The position numbers were made by a program, and so were the translations under genes. The notes beneath the pieces are model-generated. The model searched no databases. It was given only the letters and a program-made list of their open reading frames with translations, and was not told the DNA's origin. A DNA stretch of 63,655 nt, the filler included, from Craspedostauros australis (taxonomy: Eukaryota): assembly GCA_030167865.1 (NCBI GenBank). It is 12 parts of 12 records of this genome, joined end to end, with 100 filler letters (N's around TTAATTAATTAA, not from the genome) between each part and the next. Parts side by side here need not be neighbours in the genome. Positions count along the whole stretch, not along the records: positions 19,553 to 25,922 come from JALAGF010004123.1; 11 more parts are not named here. One strand, written 5' to 3'. Of the stretch, positions 1,954 through 62,761 are shown one piece after another. Position 1 is the first letter of the stretch, and each line of letters begins with the position of its first letter.

Positions 1954-3650
1954 GATGGGGCTGGTGTGTGTCGAGATGGAATGGCTTGTTGCTGAGATCA
2001 GATCGATGCGACGGGCTTTTTCGATGTGATTGAATGATTGTTTGGCTGATCGTGGTCGCTTGATCGCATCTGTTTGCTTCTTATGAAGCGATCGTGCTCT
2101 GCTTCATGGTCATTGGTGGCGGTGTCCCGTGCTCCGTTTCACCCAACGTGCATGGCATTCTGTTGATTGTTGTTTCACGATGTTTGTCATTTCACATTGT
2201 TACCGCGATGTCGCTGTGACCACCCGCTCAACTTTGGCATCAACGTGAACATCAGCTTGAACATTGTCTTGAACGTGATCGTGGCCAGCCACAGAAGGAG
2301 AAAGTTGATCGTGGGCGCAGGCGTCGGATGTCATCATTGCACGTATCATCATTCTCGGAATGTGGAGACGTCCGAGGATCATGTGAGCGTGGAATCACGC
2401 AAAGCAACGGAGTCAACGCGGGGGTGGGATGCTCCTCGCCATCCACAGCCGGATGTTCTGTTGCCATCCTTGTTGTTCTTTTTGTTGGTGCCAAGAGCGA
2501 ACACGAACGCCAACGCCGCGCCAAAAAAGAGTCGACCGAGTCAAAGTTCATTGTTCTTGATGACGTACTTGAATTTGTTGTGGTTGAGCAACTGTGCAGT
2601 CGTCCACGATGACACGCATGAACACTCACACACAAGCACCATCATCACTTCTGTTCAATCGCAACTCCGTTCGACAACCGCGATGATGGTGAACCTCCCC
2701 AACGATCAGAAATGATACCCCACGTGAGGCTTGCAAAGCAAAGCAATGAGACAAGACGAGGAAGTGCAGTGTCATGATGGAAAAGCAGAGGACGAACACA
2801 AATACCTCTTTATCATCCTGCTCTTGGTCGCTCCGCTCCGCATCGCATCGCATCCCTTCACACCATGAACACAAGTAGTGGGACAACATGATGAGGCATC
2901 AACGTCCAAGAAGAATTGCGTGAAGGCATTCCACTTTCTCCGCGACTACACTCCGAGCATGGAACCTTCCATGAGTAGTTGCCGCAGCAAAGCATCCGCC
3001 TGATACTCTGATTGAAATTCCGTACGATCCTAACGATTGGAGTTGCATGAAGCGTGCGGCGTCGGACCACCGATCGCGTGCGCTGCTATCGGAAGGCACA
3101 CACACACACACATCGCGCTGGTATCACGCAGACATCGCAAACTTGACATCAAGCAGTGCAGCGACAGACTTGAAGGATCGCAGCATCCTGGACGTCGGCA
3201 TCAAGACGGCAACGTGGCTGAACCATTGCTGGCGATGACATACGACGCAGCGCTTCGCAGCATCAATTGTATCCACCAATCGGAACAACGGAAGCGGCGA
3301 GAACTGAGCCGGCACCAACGAAGTTGATGCCAGTGCCGATGGCAGGCTGGGAATCCGGTGGGATCAAGAAGAGTTTGACGTGGCAAGTACGCTAGCGGCG
3401 TTTTGAGATGGCCGGCAGAAGAGCGAGATGATACTGCAGTAGCTACTTCTGTATACGTACCATTGCAGTCGCGGCGGGACTTCCATCCATTTCTCCATTC
3501 GCTGTATCCGTTGCTCCTCTGCGCACGGACTGGCCCAATGTGCTGCAAACGAGCATGGAGAGAGCACTTGAAGTGTAGAATAGAGCATAATGGGGGATCT
3601 GACGATCGGTAGTAGTATAGATGGCATGGCATGTCAAAGAGAGTAAATGA

Positions 3651-3823
3651 TTATCTACCGTTACCATTTCGTCGCTGTTTTGGCCTGTGCCTCTGCCGAT
3701 CTCTTTTCGCGGAGGCATGATCGGACATCCTCGACTCAAGTAGCGCCAACATCCTCTTGCCACAGCCTTTCTCCCGCGCGCACTCCAATGCCGTATTGCC
3801 AGCCTTGTTCCGCGCATGAATAT
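3651..3823 (-). pseudogene. Displaced 3' end of the ankyrin gene at 5923..7443
   Basis: Removing 3824..5947 plus one ATAT gives in-frame DDIDIHARNKAGNTALECAREKGCGKRMLALLESR...NGR* with the stop at 3651-3653. This completes a final ANK repeat. Confidence 0.85.
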
Positions 3824-5947
3824 CCATAGTGATTTTTTTCTGCGTCAGGACGCAAAACAGCCACTTTTTGCAAGCTGACGCAAGCTAAGAATGTAGCACT
3901 GTTTGTGTTTGCGTCAGGACGCATCCAAGAAATACCGTGGCAATTTAACACGAAGAGTAGTCGTGATAGACTCGCCCGATCGATGCGAAAAAGATAGCTC
4001 CCCAAATGCCACCTCTGTTGACTGTGCTTCTTTGGACATCGAAGGCCTCCCACGCGTTTTCTTCGTGTTGTTTTCTTCGTGTTGTTTTCTTCATTGGGCA
4101 GATATCTGTCGTCTCTGCCCAAGGTACCAGTGAATAGTGATTGATAAATAGATACTCTCACTTATGATAGACCTCATTACACATATTACCCTCTGCCTAT
4201 TGACTGCACTTTTGTTTGTGTTGAGGAGTACAGTGGCATGCATTTCCATGAGTGGGTCCATCAGCTCCGTCGTGCAATTTTCATTCCTGTTGCAAATCAT
4301 CTGCTGCTCTTCTTGGCTTGATCGGTAGCAACCATGATTGCACCTGCACCCCTCATAAGGAATCTGTGTTCAGATTTCCTGCCATCCGTACAGCCGCAAC
4401 AGTCGCCGGGTTCACTCGGTAAACATTCATCTGTATTGGTAGCTCCATCAGACATGTTCTCGTCTGTCTTGCAAGCGCAAACCTCAATCTCCTTCCATTT
4501 CCCAGACCTATTCTTGCACTTGCTGGATTCAGACAACCACCATCCATGAGCCTCTGCTGAAACAATGTGAGGGTGAGGTTTACAATGGTCCTATGTGAAG
4601 TACACTTGCTCTCTTTTGTGTGGCATTCCGACTTTGGCGTGGTAGATGATGTTCCTATCGTGCATCCCTCCATCATAAAGTCAAATAGGTGTCTTCTCAT
4701 GTATCGGTCTTTGCATGATTGGACTGACGAATCACATGGCGATGGCACTCTCAATTGCAACTTGTCCGTCCACAACTTGATGAATCTGATCATTCATGTT
4801 GGTATCCATCCTCCTGCGAATGAAAGCACCAACTGAACAATGAAATGAAACAGACACTTGGCCATGTGCATTACATGAAGGAAAGGAAAACATATGCTGG
4901 CGTGAATGTATCCAACATCTATGAAAGCAATAGTCTACAGTGATCTGATACAATGCCATGGTGTGTCATTCCGTCCTCCTCGCTCGGTACACCTCCTCCA
5001 TTATCCCTAAATTGGGAGTGTCGACATGGCTGAGATTGCAGACGGAGATATCGCCAGACAGATGGGCATCCGAATCCCTCAGAGAATGAAGCAGCTTGGA
5101 ATGCGGTATCATGTTTACGTCAGTCATTATTGAACTGTTGATACTGATACCATTCGAGCCAATCCTACGATGGTTGGGTCATCATGATGCAACATCCAAT
5201 GTCAACAACTCAGCTGAGGAGTACAACAAGCACATTCAACTCACATGCAGATTGGCACTCTCGTGTATGTCCTGAAAGGGACTGCCATGTGTACAAATGC
5301 TGACGCTCAACATACATTCGAATAACAGTGAAGATACCTATTGCATATAGGAGCACAACTTTGTTGTTGTTGGCGATCAAGGCACATGGGCAGCCACTGA
5401 AGATATGAATATGGCAGTGGTTATATTCATAGTAACTGGGGCAACCACGCGGCGACAAGAGGAGGGAGCTGAGAGGATCGCACGTTCGACCAACATCGAA
5501 GAAAGGAAAGGAATCAGCTGGACATTGCAGCCACCGGATACCTATAGGTTTCAAATACAGATTGAAGATTGTTCCTTGGCAGTTATATTGCACTAAAGAG
5601 TTGGAAGAGGCAACTTCCTACTCGTTATCACTCTCCAAACAACAGCAAGCAAAAGTATAGTGCCTGGGATAGAAAGCACACAAGAGCACGCGATTTTGTG
5701 CGGAGCAACAAACAACACGAAGAATCGGGTGGTGGCATGAGAACCCAAAACAACACGAAGAAACACGCGATGTGGGGAGGGTCTTGTTTGCCATTTAGTC
5801 GGACGAGTCTATCACGATTAAACGTCGCGACAAATCGTCGCGTTATTTTTCGTTTGCGTCAGGACGCAACAGTTCACGCACACCGCTAGTAAAATTTTGC
5901 GTCCTGACGCAAGGGGGGTCCTCTATCGTGGGGAAAAATCACTATGG
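3824..5947. mobile_element. Non-autonomous TIR DNA transposon (2124 bp) with ATAT target-site duplication
   Basis: 14-bp TIRs CCATAGTGATTTTT (3824) / AAAAATCACTATGG (ends 5947). ATAT at 3820-3823 and 5948-5951. Subterminal TGCGTCAGGACGCA at 3841, 3910, 5855 and inverted at 5898. A second inverted pair lies at 3958-3979 / 5799-5820 (20/22 match). No long intact ORF inside. Confidence 0.9.
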
Positions 5948-7443
5948 ATATCGATATCATCCAACGTCATCAGATACTCGACCAGCCCCAAGCAATTCTT
6001 TTCCACCGCACAGTGCAGCACTGTTTCTCGATAATTGTTCCTCGTGTTCACGTCCACCTTTACATCGCTCAATTGAATCAAGATCTTCATCTTTCGCAGG
6101 CGGTATTTGTAGTAGTCGGAGTCGGTACTGGGAATGCAGTGCAGAGCTGTGTCGCCATCGCTATTCACAAGCGTTGCATCTACCGAGTCACACCCCACCA
6201 AAACTCGAAGAACGATTGTACTGCTCTTCCAACTCGCACATGCAAGATGAAGAAGTGTGTTGCCCTCATGATTCTGGATGTTTGCAATTGGTTGAGCCTC
6301 TTCTATCAATCGCTTGATGATGACCGGACTTCCCATGGAGTTGTCTGCTTGTGAGAGATCGGTAAGGTTGGCGGTGGGAATGATTTGATATTGGATGAAA
6401 TCGAAGAGGCGGGTGAGTCTGGTGAGTCCGGTGGTGTCATTGAGCACAACGAACAAGCCTCTCTTGAAGGCAATATGGAAGGGTGTATCACCATCGCGGT
6501 TTTGGATGATGAGACTGCTGTTGGTCTTGAGTGACCGGAGCAGGTATTCGATGACATCTTCTTCCCGATGCTTGCATGCAACATGGAGAGGTGTGTTGCC
6601 GTCACTGTTTTGAATCTTGAGGATTTCATCGATATTCATGTTGTCTTTGTTGCTGTTGTCGCCGTTATTGTTATTGTTATTGTTATTGTTGGGTAGACCG
6701 ACTTCGATCAACAACTTCAACGAAGATAGCATTCCACGGTGCCTGTGAGAGCAAAGAAGATGAAATGGTGTGTCGCCATCGTTGTTTTGGGTACGGATAT
6801 GACTGTCTGTGTCGATTTCGTCACACTGGACCAGATACGCAATCATATCCTCAGCATCAGAGCAGATCATGCGACAAGCCAGGTGGAGAAGTGTGTCACC
6901 GTTGTTGTTGCGGACGTTGGAATTTATGGCAGCGCCGACATCATTCGATTCCATCTGATATCGAAGATCGCTGCTCACCCTCCGACACGCCCAATGCGGA
7001 GGCGTCTCACCTTTGGTGTTTCGGGGGTTGATATCCACGTTGTTTCGATCAGACCGCATGAAGTATTCGACGATATCTTTGTGTCCATGATAGCACGCAC
7101 TTTGCATTGGAGTGTTGCTGTGGTTGTCTCGAATGTTGATATCCACGTGGGCGCGAGCCAATTCCATCAGGTACTTCACGATGTTCGTTTTTCCATGATG
7201 ACAAGCACGATGGAGTGCTGTCCGTCCGCTGTCATCTCGGAGGTTGACGTCCACCTTGATTCGATCAGACTCCAACAAGTACGTCACAATTGCTGTGTAT
7301 CCATGAGCGCAAGCAACGTGGAGTGGCGATGTACTCAACCGCCGAAGCATTACAATGCCGCAAAACGTGCCCTCCTCGCATGAATTGACGATAGCCTGAA
7401 CCTGTGTGAGGTTGTTCTGATCGCATGCTCTGCACAACTGCAA
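5923..7443 (-). CDS. Ankyrin-repeat protein, C-terminus truncated by transposon insertion; start uncertain
   Basis: Multiple SPLHVAC/TALHRAC/GDTLLHLAC/GNTPLHVAC repeats and a poly-Asn insert. The last residues (HSDFSPR*) are encoded by the transposon end. The ORF starts at TTG; the nearest ATG (7478) is one base out of frame. Confidence 0.85.
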   Translation of the reverse strand: MQLCRACDQNNLTQVQAIVNSCEEGTFCGIVMLRRLSTSPLHVACAHGYTAIVTYLLESDRIKVDVNLRDDSGRTALHRACHHGKTNIVKYLMELARAHVDINIRDNHSNTPMQSACYHGHKDIVEYFMRSDRNNVDINPRNTKGETPPHWACRRVSSDLRYQMESNDVGAAINSNVRNNNGDTLLHLACRMICSDAEDMIAYLVQCDEIDTDSHIRTQNNDGDTPFHLLCSHRHRGMLSSLKLLIEVGLPNNNNNNNNNGDNSNKDNMNIDEILKIQNSDGNTPLHVACKHREEDVIEYLLRSLKTNSSLIIQNRDGDTPFHIAFKRGLFVVLNDTTGLTRLTRLFDFIQYQIIPTANLTDLSQADNSMGSPVIIKRLIEEAQPIANIQNHEGNTLLHLACASWKSSTIVLRVLVGCDSVDATLVNSDGDTALHCIPSTDSDYYKYRLRKMKILIQLSDVKVDVNTRNNYRETVLHCAVEKNCLGLVEYLMTLDDIDIHSDFSPR

Positions 7444-7893
7444 AAGCCATTTTTTCTTTGCCTCATCACTGTTTCCATTTTATATTCGGGTTCCATGCGC
7501 ATTTCATTTCCGGCATAACATTTGTCCCAACAGATACAATCCGGATTCGATGGATGAGAAGACAAGAAGCACGAATGTGAGTGTAACTCTAATAGAAGAC
7601 TGATGTTGTCGACAAGCTACGATCATGGGTGTACGTCGCTGTGTCACATCACACACAAGCACACGCAGATGCACGATGATACTCAAGTACGACGGAGGCG
7701 AGCAAAGGAAACGAGCGCAAACTCGAAGGTGGAACTGGACAGCATTCGCATACCCAGGCAGGCGCAAGCGCAAGCGCAAGCAGACACAAGCATCAGAGCA
7801 CATGTGGACACAAGCAATCAACTCACCTGGATGATCGATCGTTGGCGGAGCTCATGCTTGTACCAGTGCTTTTGCTGAACCTCGAATGGACAG

Positions 7894-19452: not shown

Positions 19453-19686
19453 NNNNNNNNNNNNNNNNNNNNNNNNNNNNNNNNNNNNNNNNNNNNTTAA
19501 TTAATTAANNNNNNNNNNNNNNNNNNNNNNNNNNNNNNNNNNNNNNNNNNNNTCGAGCACATCAGCAACTGACATCGAATTGCCACTCATATTCATCACA
19601 CAGTGCATGATACTCGTACGGATACAAGCCAGTACAGACACTGCCATCGGTAGCTCATACCACACACTTGCTCGACAGCCAATCCA

Positions 19687-22368
19687 ATGCCAATAATCCA
19701 ACGTCAATCACCCAACAACCATCGTCCAGCAACTATCGACTATCCTCTCCAAATGCCGAATGTTACAAACGAACAACTCGTTGATGCTGCCAAGGCAGGT
19801 GACTTGTCAGTGTTGAAGGAATGGAAGGAGCAGAACAAGACGCAGAATGAAGGAGTTGATGTCAACTGCAAAAGCGGCAGTGGTATCACTCTCCTTCATT
19901 GGGCATGCCTTCACGGCCACCTGGAGTGTGTCAAGTACCTCATCGAATCATGTGGGGCCGACGCCAACTGCAAAGACAACAATGGAACCATTCCCCTTCA
20001 TGACGCATGCGCTACCGGCCACCTGGAATGTGTCAAGTACCTCATCGAATCATGTGAGGCGGACATCAACTGCAAAAACAACGACGGTCTCACTCCCCTT
20101 CATGTGGCATGCAAAAACGGCCAGCTGGAATGTGTGAAGCACCTCATCGAGTCATGTGAGGCAGACATCAACTGCAAAGACAACGATGGCGTCACTCCCC
20201 TCCATCGGGCATGCCAAAATGGCCGGCTGGAGTGTGTGAAGTGCCTCATCCAATCATGCGGAGCTGACGCCAACTGTGAAGACAAGTTTGGTGGCACTCC
20301 CGTTCATCATGCATGCATCACTGGCCAGCTGGAATGTGTGAAGTACCTCATCAAATCATGCAGGGCCAACGTCAACTGCAAAACCAACAAGGGCACCACT
20401 CCCCTTCAGCATGCATGCCTCGCTGGCCAACTGGGGTGTGTGAAGTACCTCATCGAATCATGCAGGGCTGACATCAACTGCAAAGACAGGTTTCATAACA
20501 CTCTCCTTCATCTCGCATGCCGCAACGGCCAGCTGGAGTGTGTGAAGTACCTCATCCAATCACACGGGGTCAACGTCAACCTCCAAAACTTGTTAGGTGC
20601 CACTCCCCTTCATCAAGCATGCATGAACGACCAGCTGGAGTGCATCGAGTACCTCATCGCATCAGCCAATGCCGATATCGACATCCAAGACAGTGACAAC
20701 AAAACCCCTCTCGATGTGATCCGTACAATCGATCAACTCAATGTGGTGAAGTCAATCATCGCTGATCGCAGTCACCGCAACCAGCAACAGCAACAGCAGT
20801 TGAAAGAGAACAAGCAGGAGAACGAGCAACTGAAGTGGCAGTTGAAACGGCAGAAGGAAGCAATGCAGGGCATGCTCTCGAACAGTCAACGAGAGAACGA
20901 ACAACTGAAACGGCAGGTAGAATGGGAGGGGCAAGAGAAGAAAAAGAAGGACCAGGAGAGCGAACAACTGAAACAGCAGTTAGAACGGGAGGGGCAAGAG
21001 AAGAATAAGAAGGAGCAGGAGAACAAGCAACTGAAACAGCAGTTGAAACAGCAGAAGGAAGCAATGCGGGGCATGCTCTCGAAAAGTCAGCGAGAGAACG
21101 AACAACTGAAGCTGGAGTTGGGACAGCAGAAGGAAGAAATGCAGCGCATGCTCTCGAAAAGTCAACGAGAGAGCGGACAACTGAAACGGCAGTTGGAACG
21201 GGAGGGACAAGAAAAGAACAAGAAGGACCAGGAGAACAAGCAACTGAAATGGCAGATGAAACAGCAGTCGAAACAGCAATCGAAACAGCAGAAGGAGGCA
21301 ATGCAGGGCATGGTCTCGAAAACTCGACGGGAGAACGAACAGCTGAAACAGCAGTTGGAACGGGAGGGGCAAGAGAAGACCCAGAAGGAGCAAGAGAATG
21401 AACAACTGAAACAGCAGTTGGAACGGAAGGAGGAAGAGAAGACCCAGAAGGAGCAGGAGAACGAACAATTGAAACAGCAATTGGAACGGAAGGAGGAATC
21501 AATGCAGCGCTTGCTCTCGAAAAGTCAACAGGAGAGCGAACAACTGAAACTGAAGTTGAAACAACACCTCAAGATCAGCATCGACCAAGATCGTCGCACT
21601 GCTGTTCGTGCCGAGGCCATCGCAGACATTGCCTTCCTGTGCGGACAAGGGGACGACCAACAATCAATCAAGGCAAACTCTGCACTCCTCATGATCACCG
21701 TCCCATCTATTCAGACATTGATCAACTCCGGAATCCAACATCAATGTGCTCACAATGGTGCTCAAGATGGAACTGATCCCATCCAAACGACCATCCCTCT
21801 TCCCAACCTTCAACCAAAACACGTCCAACACGTCCTCCAATGCATCTACACAGGTGAGATGTCCTTCGACAACAGCGCTCATGAAGACAACGCTAATGCC
21901 GGTGACGCAAACCAACCAACTCCCACCCTCAATGGACAGGACGATCTGCAACAGCTGATCCTTGTGGCCAACGAATTCGGCTTCTGGCGACTCAAGCTTG
22001 TTGTCGAAGCAGAGTTGGCCCGCAAATATCTCACAGAGGACAGCATGATAGATGCGTTGATATTCGCCGATCAACACAACTGCATGGTGTTGAAGGATGC
22101 AGCAATGAGAATGGCAGTTGGATATGAACAAAATCCGCTCACTCATCCAGATTTCAGCAAGCTGATCCTACAGCCCCAACTGATCATGGAGATCAAGGTG
22201 CTTTGCAGTGGGGAAGCAGAGAGCGATGACATTGATGATGAGTACAGCTGTATGTCCATGATGGAGCTGTACAAGGTTGTCAATGAGGATGAGGGTGCAG
22301 CACAAGTGGATTCATACATGGACCGGGCGACACTCGTGGACCTTGTCCGCTCAATGAGAACCAATTGA
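19687..22368 (+). CDS. Ankyrin-repeat / coiled-coil / BTB(POZ) domain protein
   Basis: 8 full 34-aa ANK repeats, ~260 aa of ENEQLKQQLE-type coiled-coil repeats, then BTB-like ADIAFLC...IKANSALL...VLQCIYTG...LILVANEFGFWRLKLVVEAEL and BACK-like ALIFADQHNCMVLKDAAM. The start may be ATG 19753. Confidence 0.88.
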   Translation: MPIIQRQSPNNHRPATIDYPLQMPNVTNEQLVDAAKAGDLSVLKEWKEQNKTQNEGVDVNCKSGSGITLLHWACLHGHLECVKYLIESCGADANCKDNNGTIPLHDACATGHLECVKYLIESCEADINCKNNDGLTPLHVACKNGQLECVKHLIESCEADINCKDNDGVTPLHRACQNGRLECVKCLIQSCGADANCEDKFGGTPVHHACITGQLECVKYLIKSCRANVNCKTNKGTTPLQHACLAGQLGCVKYLIESCRADINCKDRFHNTLLHLACRNGQLECVKYLIQSHGVNVNLQNLLGATPLHQACMNDQLECIEYLIASANADIDIQDSDNKTPLDVIRTIDQLNVVKSIIADRSHRNQQQQQQLKENKQENEQLKWQLKRQKEAMQGMLSNSQRENEQLKRQVEWEGQEKKKKDQESEQLKQQLEREGQEKNKKEQENKQLKQQLKQQKEAMRGMLSKSQRENEQLKLELGQQKEEMQRMLSKSQRESGQLKRQLEREGQEKNKKDQENKQLKWQMKQQSKQQSKQQKEAMQGMVSKTRRENEQLKQQLEREGQEKTQKEQENEQLKQQLERKEEEKTQKEQENEQLKQQLERKEESMQRLLSKSQQESEQLKLKLKQHLKISIDQDRRTAVRAEAIADIAFLCGQGDDQQSIKANSALLMITVPSIQTLINSGIQHQCAHNGAQDGTDPIQTTIPLPNLQPKHVQHVLQCIYTGEMSFDNSAHEDNANAGDANQPTPTLNGQDDLQQLILVANEFGFWRLKLVVEAELARKYLTEDSMIDALIFADQHNCMVLKDAAMRMAVGYEQNPLTHPDFSKLILQPQLIMEIKVLCSGEAESDDIDDEYSCMSMMELYKVVNEDEGAAQVDSYMDRATLVDLVRSMRTN

Positions 22369-22514: not shown

Positions 22515-23093
22515 CTAGGATAGAAACCGTGTGAAAGGAGCTGGAGCAACTAGAAATCCATTCATTCGATGGTGCATCCGGCATGCCTTCACCGTCACCT
22601 TTGGTGATCCATGCGGCATGCTGCTCCATTCACTCCTATGTCGTTCGCAGCACGGTCTGGCTAAACCACGAGATACGCATGGTCTTCTGTGCATGAATTG
22701 CAGATGATCCCGGTTGGCATAAGGCATGTTGCTGTGCAGCATCATTGGCCAATGTGACATGAAGAGGATGGTTTAGCCACCGCTGTTGTCATGGTGATCG
22801 TCGTTGCCAATCATATGGTTTCAGCGTTCGTTGGCTTCAGTGGTATGGAAGGAGCTGCGTGGGAAATGGTGGTGGACCCCCAGGGGTCGTGCCTGGCTAG
22901 AAGGGCTCGAATCCAACTTGATGAAGTGGAGCGTACTGCGACAGTCAGCTTGATGTTGTTGGTGCTGCAGTTCGTGCATGATGTCGCGCAGGACACAAGC
23001 GTATGCCAGCAGCTGCCTGGTTGTCAATATGGCCGACAAAGATGACGAGCAATGGGAGAAGTTGCCGATGCCATCGCACACGATGTCTTTCAT
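22515..23093 (-). pseudogene. SRR1-like domain pseudogene
   Basis: One frame reads DIVCDGIGNFS...RQLLAYACVLRD...ANER*NHMIG...GG*TILFMSHWPMMLHSNMPYANRDHL. This resembles SRR1 motifs (VCYG-G-F...QLA; NE-G; TLF-MPHCP--LY-N-L-ANW) with two in-frame stops. The 5' side abuts the transposon end at 23096. Confidence 0.55.
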
Positions 23094-23095
23094 AT

Positions 23096-25162
23096 CCACG
23101 GAGATTTTTTGCGTCAGGGTGCAAAAAATAAACTTAACGTGGAGATTTAAGACGGTGCGATTTCCGAATCGACTGGTTCGATTACTTCCCGTTTTTCCCT
23201 TGTGTGTTCTGATCTGTTGCTGTTGTGATTTCACGCTGTCTCTCGCGTCGTCTCCTTTTCTCCTCCTTCCGACAACAACTACAACATTGTTGTTGCACAA
23301 CGCACCTGTCCGCATTGATGCTCCTTCCTCCACCTCTTCCCAGTCTCCATCGGTCCTCCTTCCAATCAGGACATTCCCACCAACTTCAGTTCGACATCAG
23401 ACTATCTGCTCCTGCTCTTGCCTTCTCCGCAACCAACTCTCAACCATGGCAGCTGTGAACAACAACAGCACCCTTGACATGATCCAGGCTATCGACAACG
23501 AGTTTGCTGATGCTCATGCCACCAACAACATCGATGCCCCACGCCTTCTCCATGACGGTATCAGCGACCATCGTCACGATCCCAACAACCATGTTCATGT
23601 TGCCTCCGTCTGCAGCGATGACAAAGGTGGTGTTGTGGATCCACCACCCCCTACACTTGTCGGTGCATTTGGTGTTCGACCCTCTACAAGGCATGGTTGC
23701 ACCCATTGGGTCATCCTTCCTCCACCAAAGGACAACAGCAGGGGTTCCATGGAGTGGCACGTACTTTGTCCAGCCACTCATGCAACCACTGTCACCATCA
23801 GCGGCGCCCATAGTGTGGCCTTGGCTCAGCTTCGAATGGAAGTCCAGAGCACTTGTCAATGTGTGCTCCAACTGTTTCCAAAGCCTCCCCCAGGAATAGG
23901 CCCCTTTCTGTCCACCCCACATGACCTCATGCACTACGTGCTGGGACCTTCATCTTCCATCTTCGTTGATGTGTTTGGACCAGGGGGGCTGGTAATCCCC
24001 TATGGCAGCTATGCAAGCTTTCTGTATGTATTCTTGGCTCAGATGTCTTTGGGGTGCACCACCAAACGCCTCTATGACTCTGATGTCGTCGACAAGATGG
24101 ATGCATTTCCATCCAAAGAATCGTACATTGCCACCTGGAGCAAAATCAGGGACAACGGGGACACTCCATCATCAGGAGGCCATCGGTTCCTTTGGGCAGA
24201 GCTGGAAAAGGCATTCAACCTATGCCTTCCAAAGATCTGTCTGAATCATGGCAATGGTCATCGAATCGTCACTCTCGATGATGACAAGGTCCATTGCCGG
24301 AGTCATGCTGACAGAAGTTGTTTGCTTCTCATGCAACATAGTCATGCAAACCGCGATGGGTAAGTCTATCTTGTGCACTTGTGTTGGCAATGATTGTTCC
24401 ACTTTTCTTACACCATCTCATTCCATTCTCCTTCCTTCCTCTCTCCTTGTTCACTTCTTCCATTTGTCAGCATACAATTGAATACCCTTGTGCAGAGTGC
24501 ATCAGGTCTTGTTGTTGGCCTTGCTGCATCTCATGATGGTCCTCATGAAGACAACTTGGCCCTCCTTTCCCAACTGGCGAAAACCAATGGGAGCCTCCTC
24601 AATGTCACACTCATGGCAGACCGCGGCTACAACACTGAACTAAATTCACGCGATCTCATCAGCAAGGACGCAGACCTTGAAGGAACGCACAAGCATCACG
24701 CTCACCTGTCATTTACCTTCGGCGGCTGGACCGCACCAGGAAACCCACAGATGGATGTCGGAAAGCACGGCCCGCGCAAGCTTCAGATAGCCATATCAAA
24801 TAGCATGGGCAACACACCATTCACTTGCTATTCTTACCGCCACAACCTGAACAACGTGATGGCTGTTGGCACCAACGCTGCTTCATTCGAGTGGGACCTC
24901 AATCTAGAGAATCCTCGCGACCAACGAATGTACACTGACATGGTCAACAGGAAAGACGGCAACAATCGTCAGTCCGAGCTGTACCCACACTTCTTCCAAC
25001 ACTGCGTATCCAATTCTACCCTATCGCCTGCTGTGAGGGAAGCAAGGATGCTTGGCAATGACGAAATGTGTTGGAAGGCTCCGCGCACGGAGAATCGGTA
25101 GTAGTCAACACTCTTTCTCAAAGTGTTTCTGTTACTGTTACTGTTGTTGCTATTGATTGTTG
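23096..25162 (+). mobile_element. DNA transposon with piggyBac/IS4-like transposase; left end visible, right end lost in or beyond the N gap
   Basis: ATAT (23092-23095) then CCACGGAGATTTTTTGCGTCAGGGTGCAAAA, similar to the left end of the 3824..5947 element (ATAT CCATAGTGATTTTTTTCTGCGTCAGGACGCAAAA). A transposase-like gene follows 350 nt in. Confidence 0.75.
23446..25101 (+). CDS. Divergent piggyBac/IS4-like DDD/E transposase, two exons (23446-24359, 24471-25101), possibly decayed or truncated
   Basis: A GTAAGT...pyrimidine tract...CAG intron at 24360-24470 joins the two ORFs in frame: IVTLDDDKVH...HANRDG/IQLNTLVQSASGLVVGL...VTLMADRGYN...ADLEGTHK...FTFG. The motif order parallels the piggyBac DE / GIK / DN-Y / GT-R blocks. 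Confidence 0.65.
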
Positions 25163-25640
25163 NNNNNNNNNNNNNNNNNNNNNNNNNNNNNNNNNNNNNN
25201 NNNNNNNNNNNNNNNNNNNNNNNNNNNNNNNNNNNNNNNNNNNNNNNNNNNNNNNNNNNNNNNNNNNNNNNNNNNNNNNNNNNNNNNNNNNNNNNNNNNN
25301 NNNNNNNNNNNNNNNNNNNNNNNNNNNNNNNNNNNNNNNNNNNTCAGGTTTTGTTGAACCTGATGATTGATCGAATCTGATGGAATATTCACAACATATT
25401 TCATTCCTGTAGACCTGGTAGTTAAGGTCTTGATGTGACGTCACGTGTGATGGATACTGTGGTATCCGCTGGAACACCCAACATTTTGTCCGATTTTCAC
25501 TTTTCTAGCTCGTGACTTACTTTAACGGGACTTAATGGGCGGCGTTGAGACAGAAAAGTGAATCAGCCGAAATCCCAAATAGCTTACTTAGGGTTACGCT
25601 ATTGAACTTCAATTGTGGTTCGTTCACGCCCAACAAGAGA

Positions 25641-25838
25641 GACCGGACAAAACCGGAGAAACTAGGTCAGACCGGACAGACCGGACAAAATGACCGGACA
25701 AAACGNNNNNNNNNNNNNNNNNNNNNNNNNNNNNNNNNNNNNNNNNNNNNNNNGACCGGACAAAACGACCGGACAAACCGGACAAAATGACCGGACAGAC
25801 CGGACAAAACGGCCGGACAGAATGGATAGACCGGACAT
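25641..25838. repeat. GACCGGACA(AAA)-type degenerate minisatellite spanning a 48-N gap
   Basis: More than 12 visible CCGGACA cores with 9-13 nt periodicity. Confidence 0.9.
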
Positions 25839-26022
25839 AATTAACGATCTTAGCGGACACTGTTAACGGACAGTGTACCCAAAACAGCACTGAAGGTCGG
25901 CGCGGCGACGTGTGATGGATCANNNNNNNNNNNNNNNNNNNNNNNNNNNNNNNNNNNNNNNNNNNNTTAATTAATTAANNNNNNNNNNNNNNNNNNNNNN
26001 NNNNNNNNNNNNNNNNNNNNNN

Positions 26023-36328: not shown

Positions 36329-36428
36329 NNNNNNNNNNNNNNNNNNNNNNNNNNNNNNNNNNNNNNNNNNNNTTAATTAATTAANNNNNNNNNNNNNNNN
36401 NNNNNNNNNNNNNNNNNNNNNNNNNNNN

Positions 36429-37361
36429 TTTCCACATCTGATGCAGAATCTCGTGGCATGCTGGTCGTTGTGGCGGCACTTTCCAGACGCTCAGCATATC
36501 TTTGCTGTTGGCAACGGCTATAGAAAGCGCTACGGCAGTCTATCCCCGTATAATGTGGGGATTTTGAACCTGCTGCAGGCGCACAACATCAAATTCCAAC
36601 GCAGGGGCCACGGTGTACTTATGGAAGACGTGAAGGGTGTTGACAGCCCTCTCATCATTGGTCGTGCAAAAAGGGATGTATCAAGCGGCTTTCGAGTGGT
36701 CAACGAAGATGATATGCAGGACCTGAGGCACAGTTTCTTGTCGTTGCTGGGCATGGATGAAACCGAACAAAGGTCATGCGGAGTGGTTTCTACATCCAAC
36801 AGGCGTAACGTGTCACTCACAGGAACTACGACGAACGATGATTCAGTGGGTGGCGATAGCTCAAACATCCATCAACCCCGCACGCCGCGGATCGTCATCA
36901 TCAATCGCATGGGTGGGAGGCGAACGAAGGGGGCGCACAATGTCTCCATGATGTTGCAGGATGAACTTCGCCTTCCATACCGACCGCCTGTCGTGTTCCT
37001 TGAGGACATGTCATTGGAACAGCAAATAGAGGCCTTCTTCAACATCGATATTCTGTTGTCGCCGCACGGTGCGCAACTGACGTCAACCCCATTCATGCCT
37101 CGTTGCAGCTCAATGATCGAGGTGCTCCCATTTTCCTACGACTTGAACAGATTCTTTGGTACGCTGGCCGCACTGTCTGGCGTGAATCACTCGTACGTCT
37201 ACCTTGGAGAGGATCCGGTTGGGGAAACACGTCTCGCCAAGGCCACACAACAACGAGGCATTGCCCAATCGAGTTTGCTGTGTGCACCTGCGCGTCCGGT
37301 GATCGATGCCGTGAAGATCCAGGTTGAGCAGTGGCAACGGTGCTGTGGATTCGTTGGGTGA
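36429..37361 (+). CDS. Glycosyltransferase family 61 (DUF563)-like protein, 5'-partial
   Basis: PRIVIINRMGGRR, LEDMSLEQQIEAFFNIDILLSPHGAQLT, FMPRCSSMIEVLP. The frame is open from the contig start. Confidence 0.85.
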   Translation, partial: FPHLMQNLVACWSLWRHFPDAQHIFAVGNGYRKRYGSLSPYNVGILNLLQAHNIKFQRRGHGVLMEDVKGVDSPLIIGRAKRDVSSGFRVVNEDDMQDLRHSFLSLLGMDETEQRSCGVVSTSNRRNVSLTGTTTNDDSVGGDSSNIHQPRTPRIVIINRMGGRRTKGAHNVSMMLQDELRLPYRPPVVFLEDMSLEQQIEAFFNIDILLSPHGAQLTSTPFMPRCSSMIEVLPFSYDLNRFFGTLAALSGVNHSYVYLGEDPVGETRLAKATQQRGIAQSSLLCAPARPVIDAVKIQVEQWQRCCGFVG

Positions 37362-37869
37362 GAGGGTTCGTTGAGCAATGCGGTCTCTTTCTCTCTATCC
37401 TGGGAGCGCGCGACAACTGGGATGGCACCCTACCGTGCCATTCCATACCATCCCAATCTATGAGCTACTTTACTCTGTTCTATTACATAGTATACTATGA
37501 TACTGCGCAATGTATTGCTCCAATACGCAAACCAAAGCAACGCCCTCTATGTCCTTCCTTTCAAATATTGTATTAGCATCGACTCGTCCTCATCGTTGAG
37601 TTTCTGCAGAGTAGAGTACTTTGATAGTCAACGTACCAATAACATGCCACACCATCAGACCAATACTTGTTCACGTGTTCTAATCTTTGTGCTCCAAGCT
37701 TCCTTGAATTCACAGAATCATGGGCTCTTCTCCGGACTCTCTCACCAGGTAGAAACTGGAATCGCTGCGCTGAGAAGACAAGAGGACTTCACAAACGAGC
37801 ACTCTACCACAAATTCATACTCTACGCTGTCGTTCCTCCTGCAGCCGTCTTGTTGCTGGGCGTCCGCTT

Positions 37870-40467: not shown

Positions 40468-40567
40468 NNNNNNNNNNNNNNNNNNNNNNNNNNNNNNNNN
40501 NNNNNNNNNNNTTAATTAATTAANNNNNNNNNNNNNNNNNNNNNNNNNNNNNNNNNNNNNNNNNNNN

Positions 40568-41500
40568 TTTCCACATCTGATGCAGAATCTCGTGGCATGC
40601 TGGTCGTTGTGGCGGCACTTTCCAGACGCTCAGCATATCTTTGCTGTTGGCAACGGCTATAGAAAGCGCTACGGCAGTCTATCCCCGTATAATGTGGGGA
40701 TTTTGAACCTGCTGCAGGCGCACAACATCAAATTCCAACGCAGGGGCCACGGTGTACTTATGGAAGACGTGAAGGGTGTTGACAGCCCTCTCATCATTGG
40801 TCGTGCAAAAAGGGATGTATCAAGCGGCTTTCGAGTGGTCAACGAAGATGATATGCAGGACCTGAGGCACAGTTTCTTGTCGTTGCTGGGCATGGATGAA
40901 ACCGAACAAAGGTCATGCGGAGTGGTTTCTACATCCAACAGGCGTAACGTGTCACTCACAGGAACTACGACGAACGATGATTCAGTGGGTGGCGATAGCT
41001 CAAACATCCATCAACCCCGCACGCCGCGGATCGTCATCATCAATCGCATGGGTGGGAGGCGAACGAAGGGGGCGCACAATGTCTCCATGATGTTGCAGGA
41101 TGAACTTCGCCTTCCATACCGACCGCCTGTCGTGTTCCTTGAGGACATGTCATTGGAACAGCAAATAGAGGCCTTCTTCAACATCGATATTCTGTTGTCG
41201 CCGCACGGTGCGCAACTGACGTCAACCCCATTCATGCCTCGTTGCAGCTCAATGATCGAGGTGCTCCCATTTTCCTACGACTTGAACAGATTCTTTGGTA
41301 CGCTGGCCGCACTGTCTGGCGTGAATCACTCGTACGTCTACCTTGGAGAGGATCCGGTTGGGGAAACACGTCTCGCCAAGGCCACACAACAACGAGGCAT
41401 TGCCCAATCGAGTTTGCTGTGTGCACCTGCGCGTCCGGTGATCGATGCCGTGAAGATCCAGGTTGAGCAGTGGCAACGGTGCTGTGGATTCGTTGGGTGA
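40568..41500 (+). CDS. Second copy of the GT61-like fragment, 5'-partial
   Basis: Same translated sequence as 36429..37361 (offset 4139). Confidence 0.85.
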   Translation, partial: FPHLMQNLVACWSLWRHFPDAQHIFAVGNGYRKRYGSLSPYNVGILNLLQAHNIKFQRRGHGVLMEDVKGVDSPLIIGRAKRDVSSGFRVVNEDDMQDLRHSFLSLLGMDETEQRSCGVVSTSNRRNVSLTGTTTNDDSVGGDSSNIHQPRTPRIVIINRMGGRRTKGAHNVSMMLQDELRLPYRPPVVFLEDMSLEQQIEAFFNIDILLSPHGAQLTSTPFMPRCSSMIEVLPFSYDLNRFFGTLAALSGVNHSYVYLGEDPVGETRLAKATQQRGIAQSSLLCAPARPVIDAVKIQVEQWQRCCGFVG

Positions 41501-44500
41501 GAGGGTTCGTTGAGCAATGCGGTCTCTTTCTCTCTATCCTGGGAGCGCGCGACAACTGGGATGACACCCTACCGTGCCATTCCATACCATCCCAATCTAC
41601 GAGCTACTCTGATCCTACTTGTGCGCTCTTGGCAAGGTTCAAACCTCGCCGCGGAGGGATATCTGCTGCCGTCGTGCTTCCCATGGTCCAACAAGCTCCG
41701 CTGGGGTGGCCGCGGCGTTGCCTCTGGTTGGGAGGCGGTGCGCAAAAGACCATTGCTCGGACATGTGGTCTCGCAGATCCTTGCCGGGCCGGTGTCGCTG
41801 GTTGTGCGACAGACATCCGAAGAAGCGGCTCAACGTCACACCTCGAACCTCGGATGACAGACAAACGCATGAAGCGTGCCAACAATTCGTGCCACCACTT
41901 GAAACAGAGATCTGTGGCTCAGCACGGTTCCCACCAACAACAAGGATCAATTCTGTGCTCGTGTTGAGACGAGGAGAGACACCAAATAACCACCACCACA
42001 TTTGGGTTGACGGAGGTGCCGCCAACACAGACAGTGCCAGTCAAGCAATGGGTTAGTGAGGCAAGCAAACAGCTGCACGAAATGCGGTGGGATACACTGA
42101 ACAGATTGAACGGAAGCAAGCAATGCAAATGATGATGTCGAATGGGAAGTGATGACAAAGAGCCTTCGAACGCGCATTGCTCAGCGACGACGCGACAGAA
42201 AGGAAGATCTCAAAGCAACAAGAGCAATCAGACCAGAGCTTCGTCCATGAACAATGGCAGCGCGCACGCCTAATGCGCTGCTGGAAAAGGAGATTCAAGA
42301 CTTGCCGAAAGAGTGAATCCATGAGATCGCACGCAGCGACATCTTCCAAAGACCGACAGAGCCAGATGTTTGGAGATATGTATGCATCCGTTGCCACCAT
42401 GTGCATCACAGCAAATGACTCCTGCCCATGCCTGTAGCATGCACAAAGCGATGCATCACAGCCACACGCCGCAAACGATGAGATGAAGGCGTGGTCTCGT
42501 CTGAGCCACAAATCATGGACATTATCTGCTGCAGCATCGACAACCTCTCCCGTGACTCGACATGTTTGTCGGCCACATCTGGAGCCATGTGGCAGTCGAT
42601 GTGCACTTGCATCCACTCGTGCCGTGCGCGATATCATACACAAACGGCACGGACACTCCGTCATATGCTGAAAAGGATGTGCAGATCAAGCCATTTGGCA
42701 ACCGCAACAATCTACCCAGCTCGGGGCGACTCCACCCACAGATGAATGGCAACGGCAATAATGGAAACTATTCGTTGAATCAGCCATCGCTGGACATGCT
42801 CGATACGACCCCCCTGGAGGGATGGATGAGACAACTATGGCAAACCGCGGATGCAAAACGTGTGGGACAACGAGAATTCTCAAACCTCCTTCAGCAGCAT
42901 GAGCAGCTCGTCGAGAAATGGCCAGCGACTCCGAATCGATCTACCAAACGACTGGAATGAAAGCGGGCGACTTTCGCCGTCGCCGTCGTTGCAAGCCCAA
43001 CACCGCTGGACGTCGATCGCACCGTTCGAGATCGACATCGGGTAGATCACACTCAGCAACGATTCCGTGCCCTTGGACGCACTGATGAATCCTCTACCGA
43101 TGCAGCAGCATGCGATTTCGAATCGAACGCACCTCCAGCAGCCGTGACGCACGCAATGGGGGCAGCTGCTCTGCTTTGCGTATACCCGGCAAGTAAGCGA
43201 GCGTTGCACGGTAGAACGATGGCGGCGAAGATGAGCCTTCAGCGCACAGATCCAAGGGTAAACCGTCCCCGTGCCGCACGCTATCCTCGCCGCATCGACG
43301 ACCCTCTTCGCGAAAGACTCGTCAGCACGAATAATCACGAAAAGAACAATCGTGATCAACAAAGAGCGAGATGACGGTGGTCATGAAGTCCAACATAACA
43401 ATAGTGAAGTAAAGTAGAATAGATCAGAGTGAAGCTCTACGTACACAATAACATAACTTGTATAGCGATAACGATTGACACTGAGTAAAATAGAATACAT
43501 GTGAAGTCGGGCAGAGCATGGTATGGTGTACTAGAATACGACCTATTCTACTTGCACAACAACACGCCCTCTTGCGCCAAACATTGCACCTGATCGAGTG
43601 ATTGGGGTGAATGAAGGTGGATATTATACGATCCATTCGCCCACTCCCAACAACACAGAGAGACTTTCCGAGAGGTAACTCCACAGCAGGGAGCACATGC
43701 GGATGTTCACTCCGATGTTGGCGTTGTTGCAGATGCCGGTGATGAGATTGTCGAGGAATGATGGAGCCGCTGGCCTTGGCAGACAAGTCTGCCAAATTTA
43801 ACTGAACTGAACTGAACTCAGTACAACTCGATTGGAGCAGAGCAATGAAGTTCAATTGAGAACTCGGTGGTGAAATGCCCACCATACAACGACACACAGT
43901 AGAATAGATGGGTGGATGGATGGATGAATGAACAGATGGCGACTGCCCCGAACATCGCTCTATGTCACAGGCGATCTCCCACCACCACCAAGGGGATGGT
44001 AGGGAACGACGATCCCGAAGACCATCATGAACCTGAACCACAAGAGAGATCGACAGGGTTTGGGAAGCCATGACGAACACGTCATAAATTCCTGAGCCGG
44101 TGGATTGGGTGAAGCAGGCATGTGCCAGCTCAGCAATTATCGGTCATGAGTTCGAAAGGACGCACGCCACTGTCGCAGAAGTACCGCACTCTCAGCGTTT
44201 ACGTAGTCGTACGGGCAAGAACAGACCAACAGAAACTCCAACACACATCGGCAGAAAACTCTGGGAACAAGACAGAACAGTGCAGCAGTCTTTGCCACCA
44301 CCTCTCACACCAACGCAATCAACAGCGTGTTTTCTTGGTGTGTGTGCATGGGTGTCTCGTGACGCAGAGAGATCCGCTCCACCTCTCGCTGGTTGTCGTT
44401 GTTGCGGATGACGTCCACAACACTCACGACAACACTCACAACATCATCTCAGACAACAACACAAATCGCAACAGACACCCGATTTTCGTCAGGAAGTGCC

Positions 44501-55530: not shown

Positions 55531-56333
55531 ACGAGCTGTTGTTGCTTGGTGACAATTCAAAATGCTCCAGAGTTCATTTACCTATCATGAAATCTCTCAT
55601 TTTCTTTCTACATTCAGAAGCTTGCTGTCTGTTGCTTTGCAACCTCTCCAACATCCTCCTCCTCATCGCTTTTGTCTGGTCTTGCATTGGACGATTTCGG
55701 AAAAGTAACAAGATGCTCTTCGTATTAGCAGCTCGTACATATTGTAGTATTCCTATCATCGAAGGCATGGCGCTTCTGCCGTTCCTGTAGACAACGAGCT
55801 TCATCGTCCAGTGATGCAGGACTTCCACGTGACCTTGCAGAGACAGTGGAGCAAAGCAATCCTCTTTACCAACACAACGTATTGATAAACTGAACTGTAG
55901 AGCAGCCAAGCTGGAAGAGGAACAGAGGCGCAATCTATGGCACATGGCTCGTGTCATCCTGTCTCTCTAGCTTCGATCACAGAATTCTCCAATCAATCAA
56001 GCGAACTCTGGGAGCGTCTGTTTGTCGCGAGCAGTTTTGCCTGTTGTTCTCGCCACATGAGCGACTGCCTGTGACAACAAGAACAAAACAGGATTCGGTC
56101 GCCTTGGCGCCAACGCCGGAGAGGCATCAACTCACAAAGAGAGACACAGACGCAAAGTACCAAGGAAGAGAGAAAGAGAGAGAGCGAGCGACGATTTGGC
56201 GACCCTAACCAGCAACAAGACGAGTTGACCAACTTGAAGTGAAGCCACTGTGACTTTGTGGCCATCCTGCAACACAGTTACAAGTCAGACAGTACACACA
56301 CGTACGCCAGAGGAGCAACCCGAACGAAGCAAC

Positions 56334-62760: not shown

Positions 62761-62761
62761 C

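What the first reader, a model, noticed from the sequence alone, without database searches (positions are those of the whole stretch)
23092..25162. ATAT-targeting transposon family linked to a spliced, divergent piggyBac/IS4-like transposase
Seen: the left end here (ATAT|CCACGGAGATTTTTTGCGTCAGG) resembles the complete element at 3824 (ATAT|CCATAGTGATTTTTTTCTGCGTCAGG) on a different contig. A GT-AG intron joins two otherwise anonymous ORFs into a protein with LDDDK...DGIQL...ADRGY...GTHK blocks. Known: canonical piggyBac uses TTAA and DE/DN-Y motifs, whereas DRGY is IS4-like. Inference: this is the autonomous-type partner of a diatom family with a non-TTAA tetranucleotide target. It may belong to poorly characterised piggyBac-related groups; I cannot confirm whether it is already catalogued.
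Basis: partly seen in the sequence, partly recalled or inferred. Interest (0 to 1): 0.75.

Follow-up and report, generated by a model that had tools for sequence, protein, structure and literature searches.

The report
piggyBac-like transposase with nested exonuclease
This is a broken copy of a diatom jumping-gene family whose piggyBac-like enzyme inserts at ATAT instead of TTAA and carries a second, lambda-type DNA-chewing enzyme built into the middle of its own active-site domain, which hints at a different way of finishing the jump.

Summary
Sister copies give the whole 5.2-kb element: CCA(C/T)GGAGA TIRs, ATAT at both ends (11 of 11 two-ended elements), a 4-bp duplication confirmed by two empty-site tests, and three exons. 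The protein has the piggyBac fold (AlphaFold2 model of a full-length homolog versus piggyBac: Z 23.9, rmsd 4.1, 373 aligned) with a D-D-D triad and a C-terminal Cys/His region. Between the second and third Asp lies about 570 aa more than in piggyBac, folding as lambda exonuclease/YqaJ (Z 14.2; Z 10.2 for this family's own exon). Both active sites are nearly invariant in 28 full-length homologs; named ones come from four diatoms and Plasmodiophora. The 3824 element belongs to a sister family (48% protein identity), not to this one. Ten paper searches found no piggyBac with a nested exonuclease; Repbase/Dfam could not be checked and may already list an ATAT group. Most likely role (inferred): 5'-to-3' processing of ends made by the DDD site.

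The parts
23092..23095 (+). ATAT target-site duplication, left copy
   Evidence: Sequence; sister contig C3540 has the same left flank and ATAT after its right TIR
23096..23126 (+). Left TIR CCACGGAGATTTTT plus one TGCGTCAGG subterminal repeat (about 70 nt of subterminal repeats present in copies C4912 and C1987 are missing here)
23446..24359 (+). Transposase exon 1: N-terminal region, piggyBac-like helical DNA-binding region, first catalytic Asp D278 (codon 24277-24279, LDDDK)
   Evidence: hhalign puts iDDDK on piggyBac idE.M
24360..24470 (+). Intron 1, 111 nt, GT-AG, phase 2; same position in families A, B and C
   Evidence: inferred from sequence and homology, no RNA reads
24471..25068 (+). 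Surviving part of exon 2: second catalytic Asp D355 (codon 24619-24621, ADRGY) and piggyBac beta-rich insertion domain; ends in GAAATG, the site duplicated by the LTR. The exonuclease, third Asp, Cys/His region and right TIR are not in the window
   Evidence: model residues 1-144 match piggyBac 293-430, Z 8.7, rmsd 3.4, 126 aligned
25069..25471 (+). Solo LTR-like repeat (TGTTGG...; ends CCGACA on contig C1006) that breaks this copy; 6-bp GAAATG duplication; contains the N gap 25163-25343
25472..25922 (+). A further TIR element with GACCGGACA repeats nested in the LTR (3-bp CTG duplication; other end on C1006)
3820..3823 (+). ATAT duplication, left copy, of the non-autonomous family B element
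3824..5947 (+). Non-autonomous 2,124-bp element of sister family B (TIR CCATAGTGATTTTT, TGCGTCAGGACGCA subterminal repeats), inserted in an ankyrin-repeat gene on the minus strand
5948..5951 (+). ATAT duplication, right copy; removing the element and one ATAT restores the ankyrin frame (…DDIDIHARNKAGNTAL…)

Best explanation
A lineage of piggyBac-fold cut-and-paste transposons whose single protein holds two nucleases. Shown or near-shown: the element has CC..GG TIRs with subterminal repeats, inserts at ATAT with a 4-bp duplication, and encodes a DDD transposase (D278, D355, D1033 in family A) with a lambda-exonuclease/YqaJ domain inserted just after the piggyBac insertion domain and before the third Asp; the exonuclease is itself split by about 200 aa of helices that in some homologs carry a SAP or Rho_N motif. 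Inferred from piggyBac: the DDD site nicks the ends, excises with 4-nt 5' overhangs and joins the 3' ends across a staggered ATAT. Inferred, about 0.45: the exonuclease, which sits next to the domain that lines the flank/target-DNA channel and keeps the 5'-phosphate pocket, resects the 5' strands of the donor break after excision. That would block piggyBac's seamless re-ligation and push repair to recombination from a sister chromatid or homolog that still carries the element, so that the donor copy is restored and copy number rises. The window's own copy is dead.
For: Architecture: family A exon 2, pLDDT 92.4; lambda exonuclease Z 10.2, rmsd 3.0, 158 aligned, residues 222-606; piggyBac Z 8.7, residues 1-144; homolog P0042, pLDDT 87.6; piggyBac Z 23.9 over chain 117-525; lambda exonuclease Z 14.2, rmsd 3.5, 207 of 226, model 404-917; YqaJ 0.94; DDE_Tnp_1_7 0.91, lead; hhalign 87%, E 4e-6. 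D1-D2 spacing 77 versus 78 in piggyBac; D2-D3 496-719 in 32 proteins versus 101 (piggyBac numbers from PMC7351741). Conservation in 28 full-length homologs: D355 28, D1033 27, W540 28, R544 28, S550 26, E779 28, S819 26 (+2 T), D821 28, E841 28, K843 27, Q894 28. Loci picked by the third-Asp motif alone: 30 of 30 with at least 900 nt upstream carry the exonuclease core. pN 0.12-0.31 versus pS 0.65-0.95 in exonuclease blocks between four families. Insertion domain lines the target channel (PMC7351741, passages). The 5'-phosphate pocket residues and 5'-to-3' activity of lambda exonuclease are recalled.
Against: No activity, expression or excision data. Residue-level match to lambda exonuclease is shown only for motif I (E 0.3); the rest is by motif and fold range. 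The whole-protein model is of a 20%-identical homolog, not of this family's spliced protein. Foldseek gave no E<=0.001 hit for the exon-2 model. One insertion at ATAG has ATAG on both sides, which fits overhang trimming and fill-in at least as well. Lambda exonuclease works as a ring trimer (recalled), hard to fit to a transposase dimer. Donor-site resection was not tested in any way.
Confidence: 0.45

Rival explanations
1. Same architecture, but the exonuclease trims the 4-nt 5' overhang or flap on the transposon ends around integration, so that junctions are filled in from the target and imperfect targets are copied faithfully.
For: An insertion whose ends lie on contigs C3856 and C4768 has the non-canonical ATAG on both sides, and paralogous empty sites fit a 4-bp duplication. 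5'-flap/overhang activity is known for monomeric relatives that also match the model (MGME1, Dna2, Exo5 rows; their activities recalled).
Against: One case only, and host mismatch repair could give the same. Three of four metagenome TIR pairs are asymmetric with ATAT on one side (TCAT/ATAT, ATAT/ATCC, GTAT/ATAT), as expected if the ATAT overhang is carried over untrimmed, though such contigs may merge copies.
Confidence: 0.27
2. The PD-(D/E)XK domain makes the second-strand (5'-end) cut in place of hairpin formation, as TnsA does for Tn7, giving a fused TnsA/TnsB-like transposase.
For: Same nuclease superfamily as TnsA (TnsA as a type II restriction-like enzyme: PMC3627910, passage; its 5'-cutting role recalled). 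piggyBac's D450 equivalent is Thr or Ser in 27 of 27, so the core differs from piggyBac near the active site.
Against: The conserved W/R/S/S pocket points to binding of an existing 5'-phosphate end, not to endonucleolytic cutting (inference from recalled lambda numbering). The aromatic-Asn pair that holds the hairpin in piggyBac (Y439, N440; PMC7351741) is kept as W-N (N in 25 of 28). No TnsA entry leads the fold lists.
Confidence: 0.16
3. The exonuclease is kept for a job outside the cutting chemistry (for example degrading excised or competing DNA, or acting on host defence), or is only a structural passenger.
For: Several superfamilies carry accessory nucleases of unknown role: YqaJ ORF in ISL2EU (PMC4122938, PMC4482050), PD-D/ExK in KolobokE (PMC9587614), DEDDh in P and piggyBac (PMC3627910).
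Against: Its catalytic residues are as invariant as the transposase's and it is wedged inside the catalytic domain; no intact exonuclease-free member was found (the one locus lacking the core, L138, is a broken copy).
Confidence: 0.09
4. The transposase is an IS4/Tn5-type enzyme rather than piggyBac-type, as the DRGY motif suggests.
For: DRGY second-Asp motif; Tn5 Z 17.3 and Foldseek rank 1, E 2.2e-4; viral 'IS4 family transposase' top row, E 1.9e-3; no Pfam DDE_Tnp_1_7 hit by HMM.
Against: Third residue is Asp in WN..KGGSD like piggyBac YN..MGGVD; C-terminal Cys/His region; 4-bp TSD and CC..GG ends; piggyBac Z 23.9 with 373 aligned including its helical DNA-binding domain.
Confidence: 0.03

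Closest known systems
piggyBac (Trichoplusia ni, PDB 6x67) and piggyBat (9c0f)
   Same: Fold of helical DNA-binding, catalytic and insertion domains; D-D-D triad with the same D1-D2 spacing; aromatic-Asn before the third Asp; Cys/His C-terminal region; CC..GG TIRs with subterminal repeats; 4-bp palindromic target.
   Different: Target ATAT, not TTAA; D2-D3 spacing about 670 instead of 101 because of a nested exonuclease; DDDK/DRGY/GGSD instead of DE/DN.Y/GGVD; no D450; no Pfam DDE_Tnp_1_7 match; 11-12% structural identity; two introns in this genome.
Phage lambda exonuclease / YqaJ (PF09588), LHK-Exo, Mimivirus R354, herpes alkaline nuclease
   Same: Fold and the motif order Q....W...R....S, G...E, S.D, E.K, Q.
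   Different: Nested inside a transposase; split by about 200 aa of helices after motif I; no Pfam YqaJ hit by HMM; oligomeric state unknown.
KolobokE (PMC9587614)
   Same: [quoted passage not shown]
   Different: Different superfamily (C/DxxH signature, TTAA TSD, RR..YY ends); nuclease lies downstream of the transposase domain, not inside it.
ISL2EU (PMC4122938, PMC4482050)
   Same: Transposon with a YqaJ exonuclease; AT-rich target.
   Different: YqaJ is a separate ORF; PHIS-type transposase with THAP; 2-bp AT TSD; GG ends.
Repbase/RepeatMasker classes piggyBacA and piggyBacX (PiggyBac-A, PiggyBac-X)
   Same: Recalled, not checked: divergent piggyBac groups from algae, one with an ATAT duplication. 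The label DNA/PiggyBac-X is used in a Plasmodiophora genome paper (10.1101/2025.07.30.667784, passage), a species that has a homolog here.
   Different: Unknown: their sequences and descriptions could not be reached, so neither membership nor whether a nested exonuclease was noted for them could be tested.
Tn7 TnsA/TnsB
   Same: A PD-(D/E)XK nuclease working with a DDE transposase.
   Different: Two proteins, restriction-type endonuclease, different DDE family; analogy only.

Membership tests
piggyBac superfamily | RNase H-like catalytic domain with piggyBac helical DNA-binding and beta-rich insertion domains | tested here: met
   Z 23.9, rmsd 4.1, 373 aligned over chain 117-525 for homolog P0042; Z 8.7, rmsd 3.4, 126 aligned for family A exon 2
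piggyBac superfamily | D268/D346/D447 catalytic triad | tested here: met
   D1 and D2 aligned by hhalign to conventional piggyBac from the same genome (A1: 87%, E 4e-6; the smaller alignment A5 gave only 0.3%); D3 by motif WN..KGGSD, D in 27 of 28
piggyBac superfamily | Fourth Asp D450 | tested here: not met
   T in 19, S in 8, gap in 1 of 28
piggyBac superfamily | TTAA target-site duplication | tested here: not met
   ATAT at 51 of 58 end matches and at both ends of 11 of 11 two-ended elements; ATAT is only a rare single-copy exception in PMC5381638
piggyBac superfamily | 4-bp duplication and CC..GG termini (shared with IS1380, PMC10045372) | tested here: met
   Ankyrin frame restored; paralogous empty sites; ends
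piggyBac superfamily | C-terminal cysteine-rich domain | tested here: inconclusive
   C..C..C..C..C...H conserved at 90% or more; match to piggyBac CRD 5lme only E 8.9; fold not searched alone
piggyBac superfamily | Pfam DDE_Tnp_1_7 (PF13843) match | tested here: not met
   0 of 25 homologs and 0 of 5 exon translations; the family's main contigs are absent from 102 genome matches; language-model lead 0.91
piggyBac superfamily | Hairpin intermediate and seamless excision | not testable with these tools
   Needs biochemistry
Lambda exonuclease / YqaJ | Fold | tested here: met
   3slp Z 14.2, rmsd 3.5, 207 of 226; Z 10.2, rmsd 3.0, 158 aligned; YqaJ clusters 0.94
Lambda exonuclease / YqaJ | Catalytic D...ExK and 5'-phosphate pocket R/S/S | tested here: met
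   D821 28, E841 28, K843 27, R544 28, S550 26, S819 26 of 28; correspondence to lambda residues by motif, numbering recalled except motif I
Lambda exonuclease / YqaJ | Ring trimer and processive 5'-to-3' activity | not tested
   No complex prediction was run; activity needs an assay
IS4 (Tn5 type) | Third catalytic Glu in a Y..R...E......K motif (recalled) | tested here: not met
   Third motif is WN..KGGSD
ISL2EU | Separate YqaJ ORF, 2-bp AT TSD, GG ends | tested here: not met
   Single ORF in intronless loci L121, L122; 4-bp TSD; CC ends
KolobokE | [quoted passage not shown] | tested here: not met
   ATAT, CC..GG, nuclease between D2 and D3
Repbase piggyBacA / piggyBacX | Sequence match to the catalogued families | not testable with these tools
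   No Repbase or Dfam access; search for the names found no describing paper; the review that may cover them is not held

The most novel reading that the evidence does not exclude
An undescribed branch of the piggyBac/IS1380 clan, spread through diatoms and reaching Rhizaria, whose transposase is an obligate two-nuclease enzyme: a live lambda-type exonuclease nested inside the RNase H core converts seamless cut-and-paste into a homing-like, copy-gaining reaction, with a natural ATAT specificity.
Probability: 0.35. Interest if true: 0.88.

Novelty: new variant of a known kind. Interest (0 to 1): 0.74.

Why it matters
piggyBac is defined by TTAA targeting and footprint-free excision, and a recent large mining effort kept only TTAA-flanked elements (PMC13461360), so this lineage would have been filtered out; Pfam misses both of its nuclease domains. 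A natural ATAT-specific relative is a direct test of how the target tetranucleotide is read and could widen the piggyBac toolbox. YqaJ-like nucleases ride with several transposon superfamilies and their role is stated to be unknown (PMC4482050); here one is welded into the catalytic domain, so single point mutants can separate the two activities. Apparently intact, young copies exist (family A C4912: no internal stop; family B: three contigs identical over 5,383 nt).

Tried and rejected
Pfam scans: no transposase or YqaJ hit (only SAP, Rho_N and TCR hits in single homologs). Word-index protein searches: none with exon 2 against longer proteins, only the first member with alignment A1. No RNA holder listed. 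Metagenome scan with P0003: 35 stretches, none confirmed. Viral contigs: 26 stretches, none confirmed. Phage records: no match. Foldseek on the exon-2 model: no E<=0.001 in PDB or BFVD. hhalign of the smaller alignment A5 against conventional piggyBac: not significant. Earlier findings of the scan: nothing in three look-ups. Of 20 metagenome loci scanned for inverted repeats only 4 gave clear ends. Rejected: a right TIR across the window gap (gap is inside the LTR); a 2-bp AT duplication (the ankyrin frame and paralogous empty sites need 4 bp); the 23096 element as direct parent of the 3824 element; an intact exonuclease-free lineage (L138 is frameshifted and deleted). One conservation row (R545) was mis-indexed and was redone as R544.
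Full report
OBSERVATION. The window is a chain of contigs. ATAT|CCACGGAGATTTTTTGCGTCAGG stands at 23092 and ATAT|CCATAGTGATTTTT ... AAAAATCACTATGG|ATAT at 3820-5951, on different contigs. The 111-nt GT-AG intron 24360-24470 and the motifs are as described. The end pattern CCAYRGWGAWTTTT occurs 58 times in the genome against 0 for the reversed control; 51 of the 58 follow ATAT. Of the other 7, three are real ends with CTAT, ATAG and CTGT flanks and four diverge within about 20 nt.

THE WINDOW COPY IS BROKEN. Four other copies (94-95% for three, 85% for one) match only query bases 1-1975; the last 94 bases belong to another repeat with at least 36 copies. It starts TGTTGG at 25069 and ends CCGACA about 570 nt later in other loci, as an LTR would. 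Contig C1006 holds the continuation: the end of a nested TIR element, the rest of the LTR, GAAATG (repeating 25063-25068), 91 nt of transposase, then another TGTTGG repeat. Contig C3540 has the same upstream region (99.5% over its first 1,946 nt, 86-91% nearer the element) and an uninterrupted 5,182-bp element ending in GG|ATAT, so it is an allele or duplicate of this insertion.

THE WHOLE ELEMENT. Family A copies C3540, C4912 and C1987 are 5.18-5.26 kb. All 11 two-ended elements I found in the fetched loci have ATAT on both sides (two of them begin at a contig start, so only the ATAT itself is seen on the left). Two tests fix the duplication at 4 bp. Removing the 3824 element plus one ATAT restores the frame of the ankyrin gene it sits in. 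An insertion whose ends lie on C3856 and C4768 reads ATAG on both sides; under a 4-bp model the junction aligns to 11 paralogous empty sites without a gap at the junction in most, whereas the 0-bp model needs a 3-4 nt gap in 10 of 11. The gene has three exons; C4912 splices to 1,377 aa with no internal stop, C1987 has none but DCGY at D2, C3540 has two stops. Both intron positions recur in sister families and fall at the same profile positions (237/238 and 835/836) where intronless homologs run straight through.

THE 3824 ELEMENT. Its ends match family B (C4455, C246, C247; identical over 5,383 nt; TIR CCATAGTGA) at 89-91%, family A at 71-75% of one end only. Families A and B are 48% identical as proteins. 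The lineage is large here: 88 matches from 69 scored of 123 candidates. Conventional piggyBac elements (IDE, DN.F, YN..MGGVD) also occur, on other contigs.

THE PROTEIN. Pfam recognises neither nuclease. HMMER over 1.84 billion proteins gave 140 hits, 28 of them 1,000 aa or longer. Most are unnamed; named members of 30 looked-up clusters and one further search are from Seminavis robusta, Craspedostauros australis, Skeletonema menzelii, Chaetoceros tenuissimus and Plasmodiophora brassicae; one transcript-derived protein carries D2 region, exonuclease, D3 and Cys/His blocks in one chain. The order of motifs is DDDK, DRGY, QG..WF..R.F..TS, a helical stretch, GH..E, S.D, E.K.R, Q.LHH, WN..KGGSD, Cys/His. 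AlphaFold2 of family A exon 2 (606 aa, pLDDT 92.4) matches lambda exonuclease over residues 222-606 (Z 10.2, rmsd 3.0, 158 aligned) and piggyBac 293-430 over residues 1-144 (Z 8.7, rmsd 3.4, 126 aligned). A full-length homolog, P0042 (1,196 aa, 20% identical, pLDDT 87.6), matches piggyBac Z 23.9 (rmsd 4.1, 373 aligned), piggyBat 20.0, Tn5 17.3 and lambda exonuclease 14.2 (rmsd 3.5, 207 of 226, model 404-917); Foldseek gives Tn5, piggyBac and piggyBat at E 2e-4 to 7e-4 and lambda exonuclease at 0.06. piggyBac's insertion domain is residues 372-433 and its third Asp is D447 (PMC7351741), so the exonuclease sits between them. hhalign puts DDDK on DE.M and DRGY on DNFF. D1-D2 is 77 in families A and B (78 in piggyBac); D2-D3 is 496-719 in 32 proteins (101 in piggyBac).

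BOTH SITES LOOK ALIVE. Counts among the 28 full-length homologs are (D355 28, D1033 27, D821 28, E841 28, K843 27, R544 28, Q894 28). These were found with a query that contains the exonuclease, so I tested independently: of 44 metagenome loci picked by the third-Asp motif (confirmed by tblastn with a full-length member), 30 have at least 900 nt upstream and all 30 carry the exonuclease core; L138, just under the cut-off at 879 nt, lacks it but is a frameshifted copy with an internal deletion that keeps motif I. Four of 20 metagenome loci scanned show CC-type TIR pairs: ATAT/ATAT, TCAT/ATAT, ATAT/ATCC, GTAT/ATAT, so the ATAT preference extends beyond this genome.

HOW IT PROBABLY WORKS. Shown: ends, target, duplication length, nested architecture, conservation. 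Carried over from piggyBac (PMC7351741): nick, hairpin, 4-nt overhang, joining across a staggered tetranucleotide; the hairpin-contacting Y439-N440 pair is kept as W-N, but D450 is not. Inferred: the exonuclease acts on 5'-phosphorylated ends that the DDD site makes, since it keeps the pocket residues (lambda numbering recalled) and adjoins the domain that lines the target channel. I favour resection of the donor break (0.45), because seamless excision otherwise loses the donor copy; trimming of the element's own overhang (0.27) is supported by the ATAG/ATAG case and opposed by the three asymmetric metagenome pairs; a TnsA-like second-strand cut gets 0.16. The architecture itself I put at about 0.93.

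WHAT IS KNOWN. Ten searches of the paper library found no description of a piggyBac with a nested lambda-type nuclease or of an ATAT-specific group. Seen as passages only: PMC4122938 and PMC4482050 (ISL2EU has a separate YqaJ ORF, role unknown), PMC9587614 (KolobokE, nuclease downstream), PMC5381638 (ATAT a rare exception), PMC10045372 (4-bp TSD and CC..GG shared with IS1380), PMC7351741, PMC13461360 (TTAA filter; N- and C-terminal fusions; four supplementary files had no match, one image PDF could not be searched and may list fused domains), PMC2806351 (a diatom element 'weakly related to piggyBac', passages and section 17), PMC5859163, PMC3627910 (DEDDh nuclease in piggyBac), PMC5718144, PMC6431247, PMC12730594 (nothing relevant), and bioRxiv 10.1101/2025.07.30.667784 (label PiggyBac-X). 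From recall only: Repbase and RepeatMasker have piggyBacA and piggyBacX classes, one tied to ATAT. I could not see them and put the chance that the lineage is already catalogued there at about one in two, and that the nested nuclease was noted at about one in four.

VERDICT. Real, works like piggyBac, but fails the TTAA, D450 and Pfam tests, so it is filed as a piggyBac-like lineage rather than a canonical member: a new variant of a known kind. Interest 0.74.

Noticed in passing
window 25069-25922 and L208 (C1006): Triple nesting: transposon, then a solo LTR-like repeat with a 6-bp duplication (GAAATG), then a TIR element with GACCGGACA arrays and a 3-bp CTG duplication; a second TGTTGG repeat interrupts the transposase 91 nt further on.
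   Followed up: partly
window 3446-7479, minus strand: An ankyrin-repeat gene is disrupted in its coding sequence by the non-autonomous family B element.
   Followed up: yes
L036 5384-6683 (C246): A 1.3-kb insertion with its own terminal inverted repeats (GACACCCGGCAAAA…TTTTGCCGGGTGTC) and internal tandem repeats sits in the right subterminal region of an otherwise identical family B copy.
   Followed up: no
L097 223-6863 (C949), also L095, L096, L101: A further subfamily (TIR CCGTAAGGAATTTTT, ATAT both sides) has a Ser/Thr-rich low-complexity expansion of about 300-400 aa inside the helical part of the exonuclease insert, with the frame open.
   Followed up: partly
L220 1437-5195 (C4940) and L218: A PF13843-matching element with inverted repeats CCTCAAAGAGCCGG preceded by CTAGTG on both arms, i.e. 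no TTAA next to them; ends and target not established.
   Followed up: no
L108 1454 and L114 6024: Older subfamily left ends CCACGATAGGATTTTT are preceded by ATCT and CTCT rather than ATAT.
   Followed up: no
L204, L205, L194, L197, L198: Another end type (CCAT(A/G)GTGA…GTGCCT…GAAGGCACTTTCTC) with ATAT in 4 of 5; no autonomous partner was looked for.
   Followed up: no
L103 (C6146) and P0002: One subfamily's exon 2 is nearly identical over about 150 aa to a transcript-derived database protein labelled Craspedostauros australis, so a close relative of these elements is transcribed in a diatom.
   Followed up: partly
window 19654-22365 versus C3540: The ankyrin/BTB gene upstream is shared by C4123 and C3540, 99.5% identical at first and falling to 86-91% near the element, suggesting two diverged haplotypes or a duplication.
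   Followed up: partly
window 36381-37464 / 40520-41603 and 55577-57836 / 60598-63264: Neighbouring contigs repeat near-identical ORFs, which looks like alternative assemblies of the same loci.
   Followed up: no
L006 and L018 flank: ORFs with a QSDNA…HFAY motif next to two of the loci look like another transposase type; not identified.
   Followed up: no
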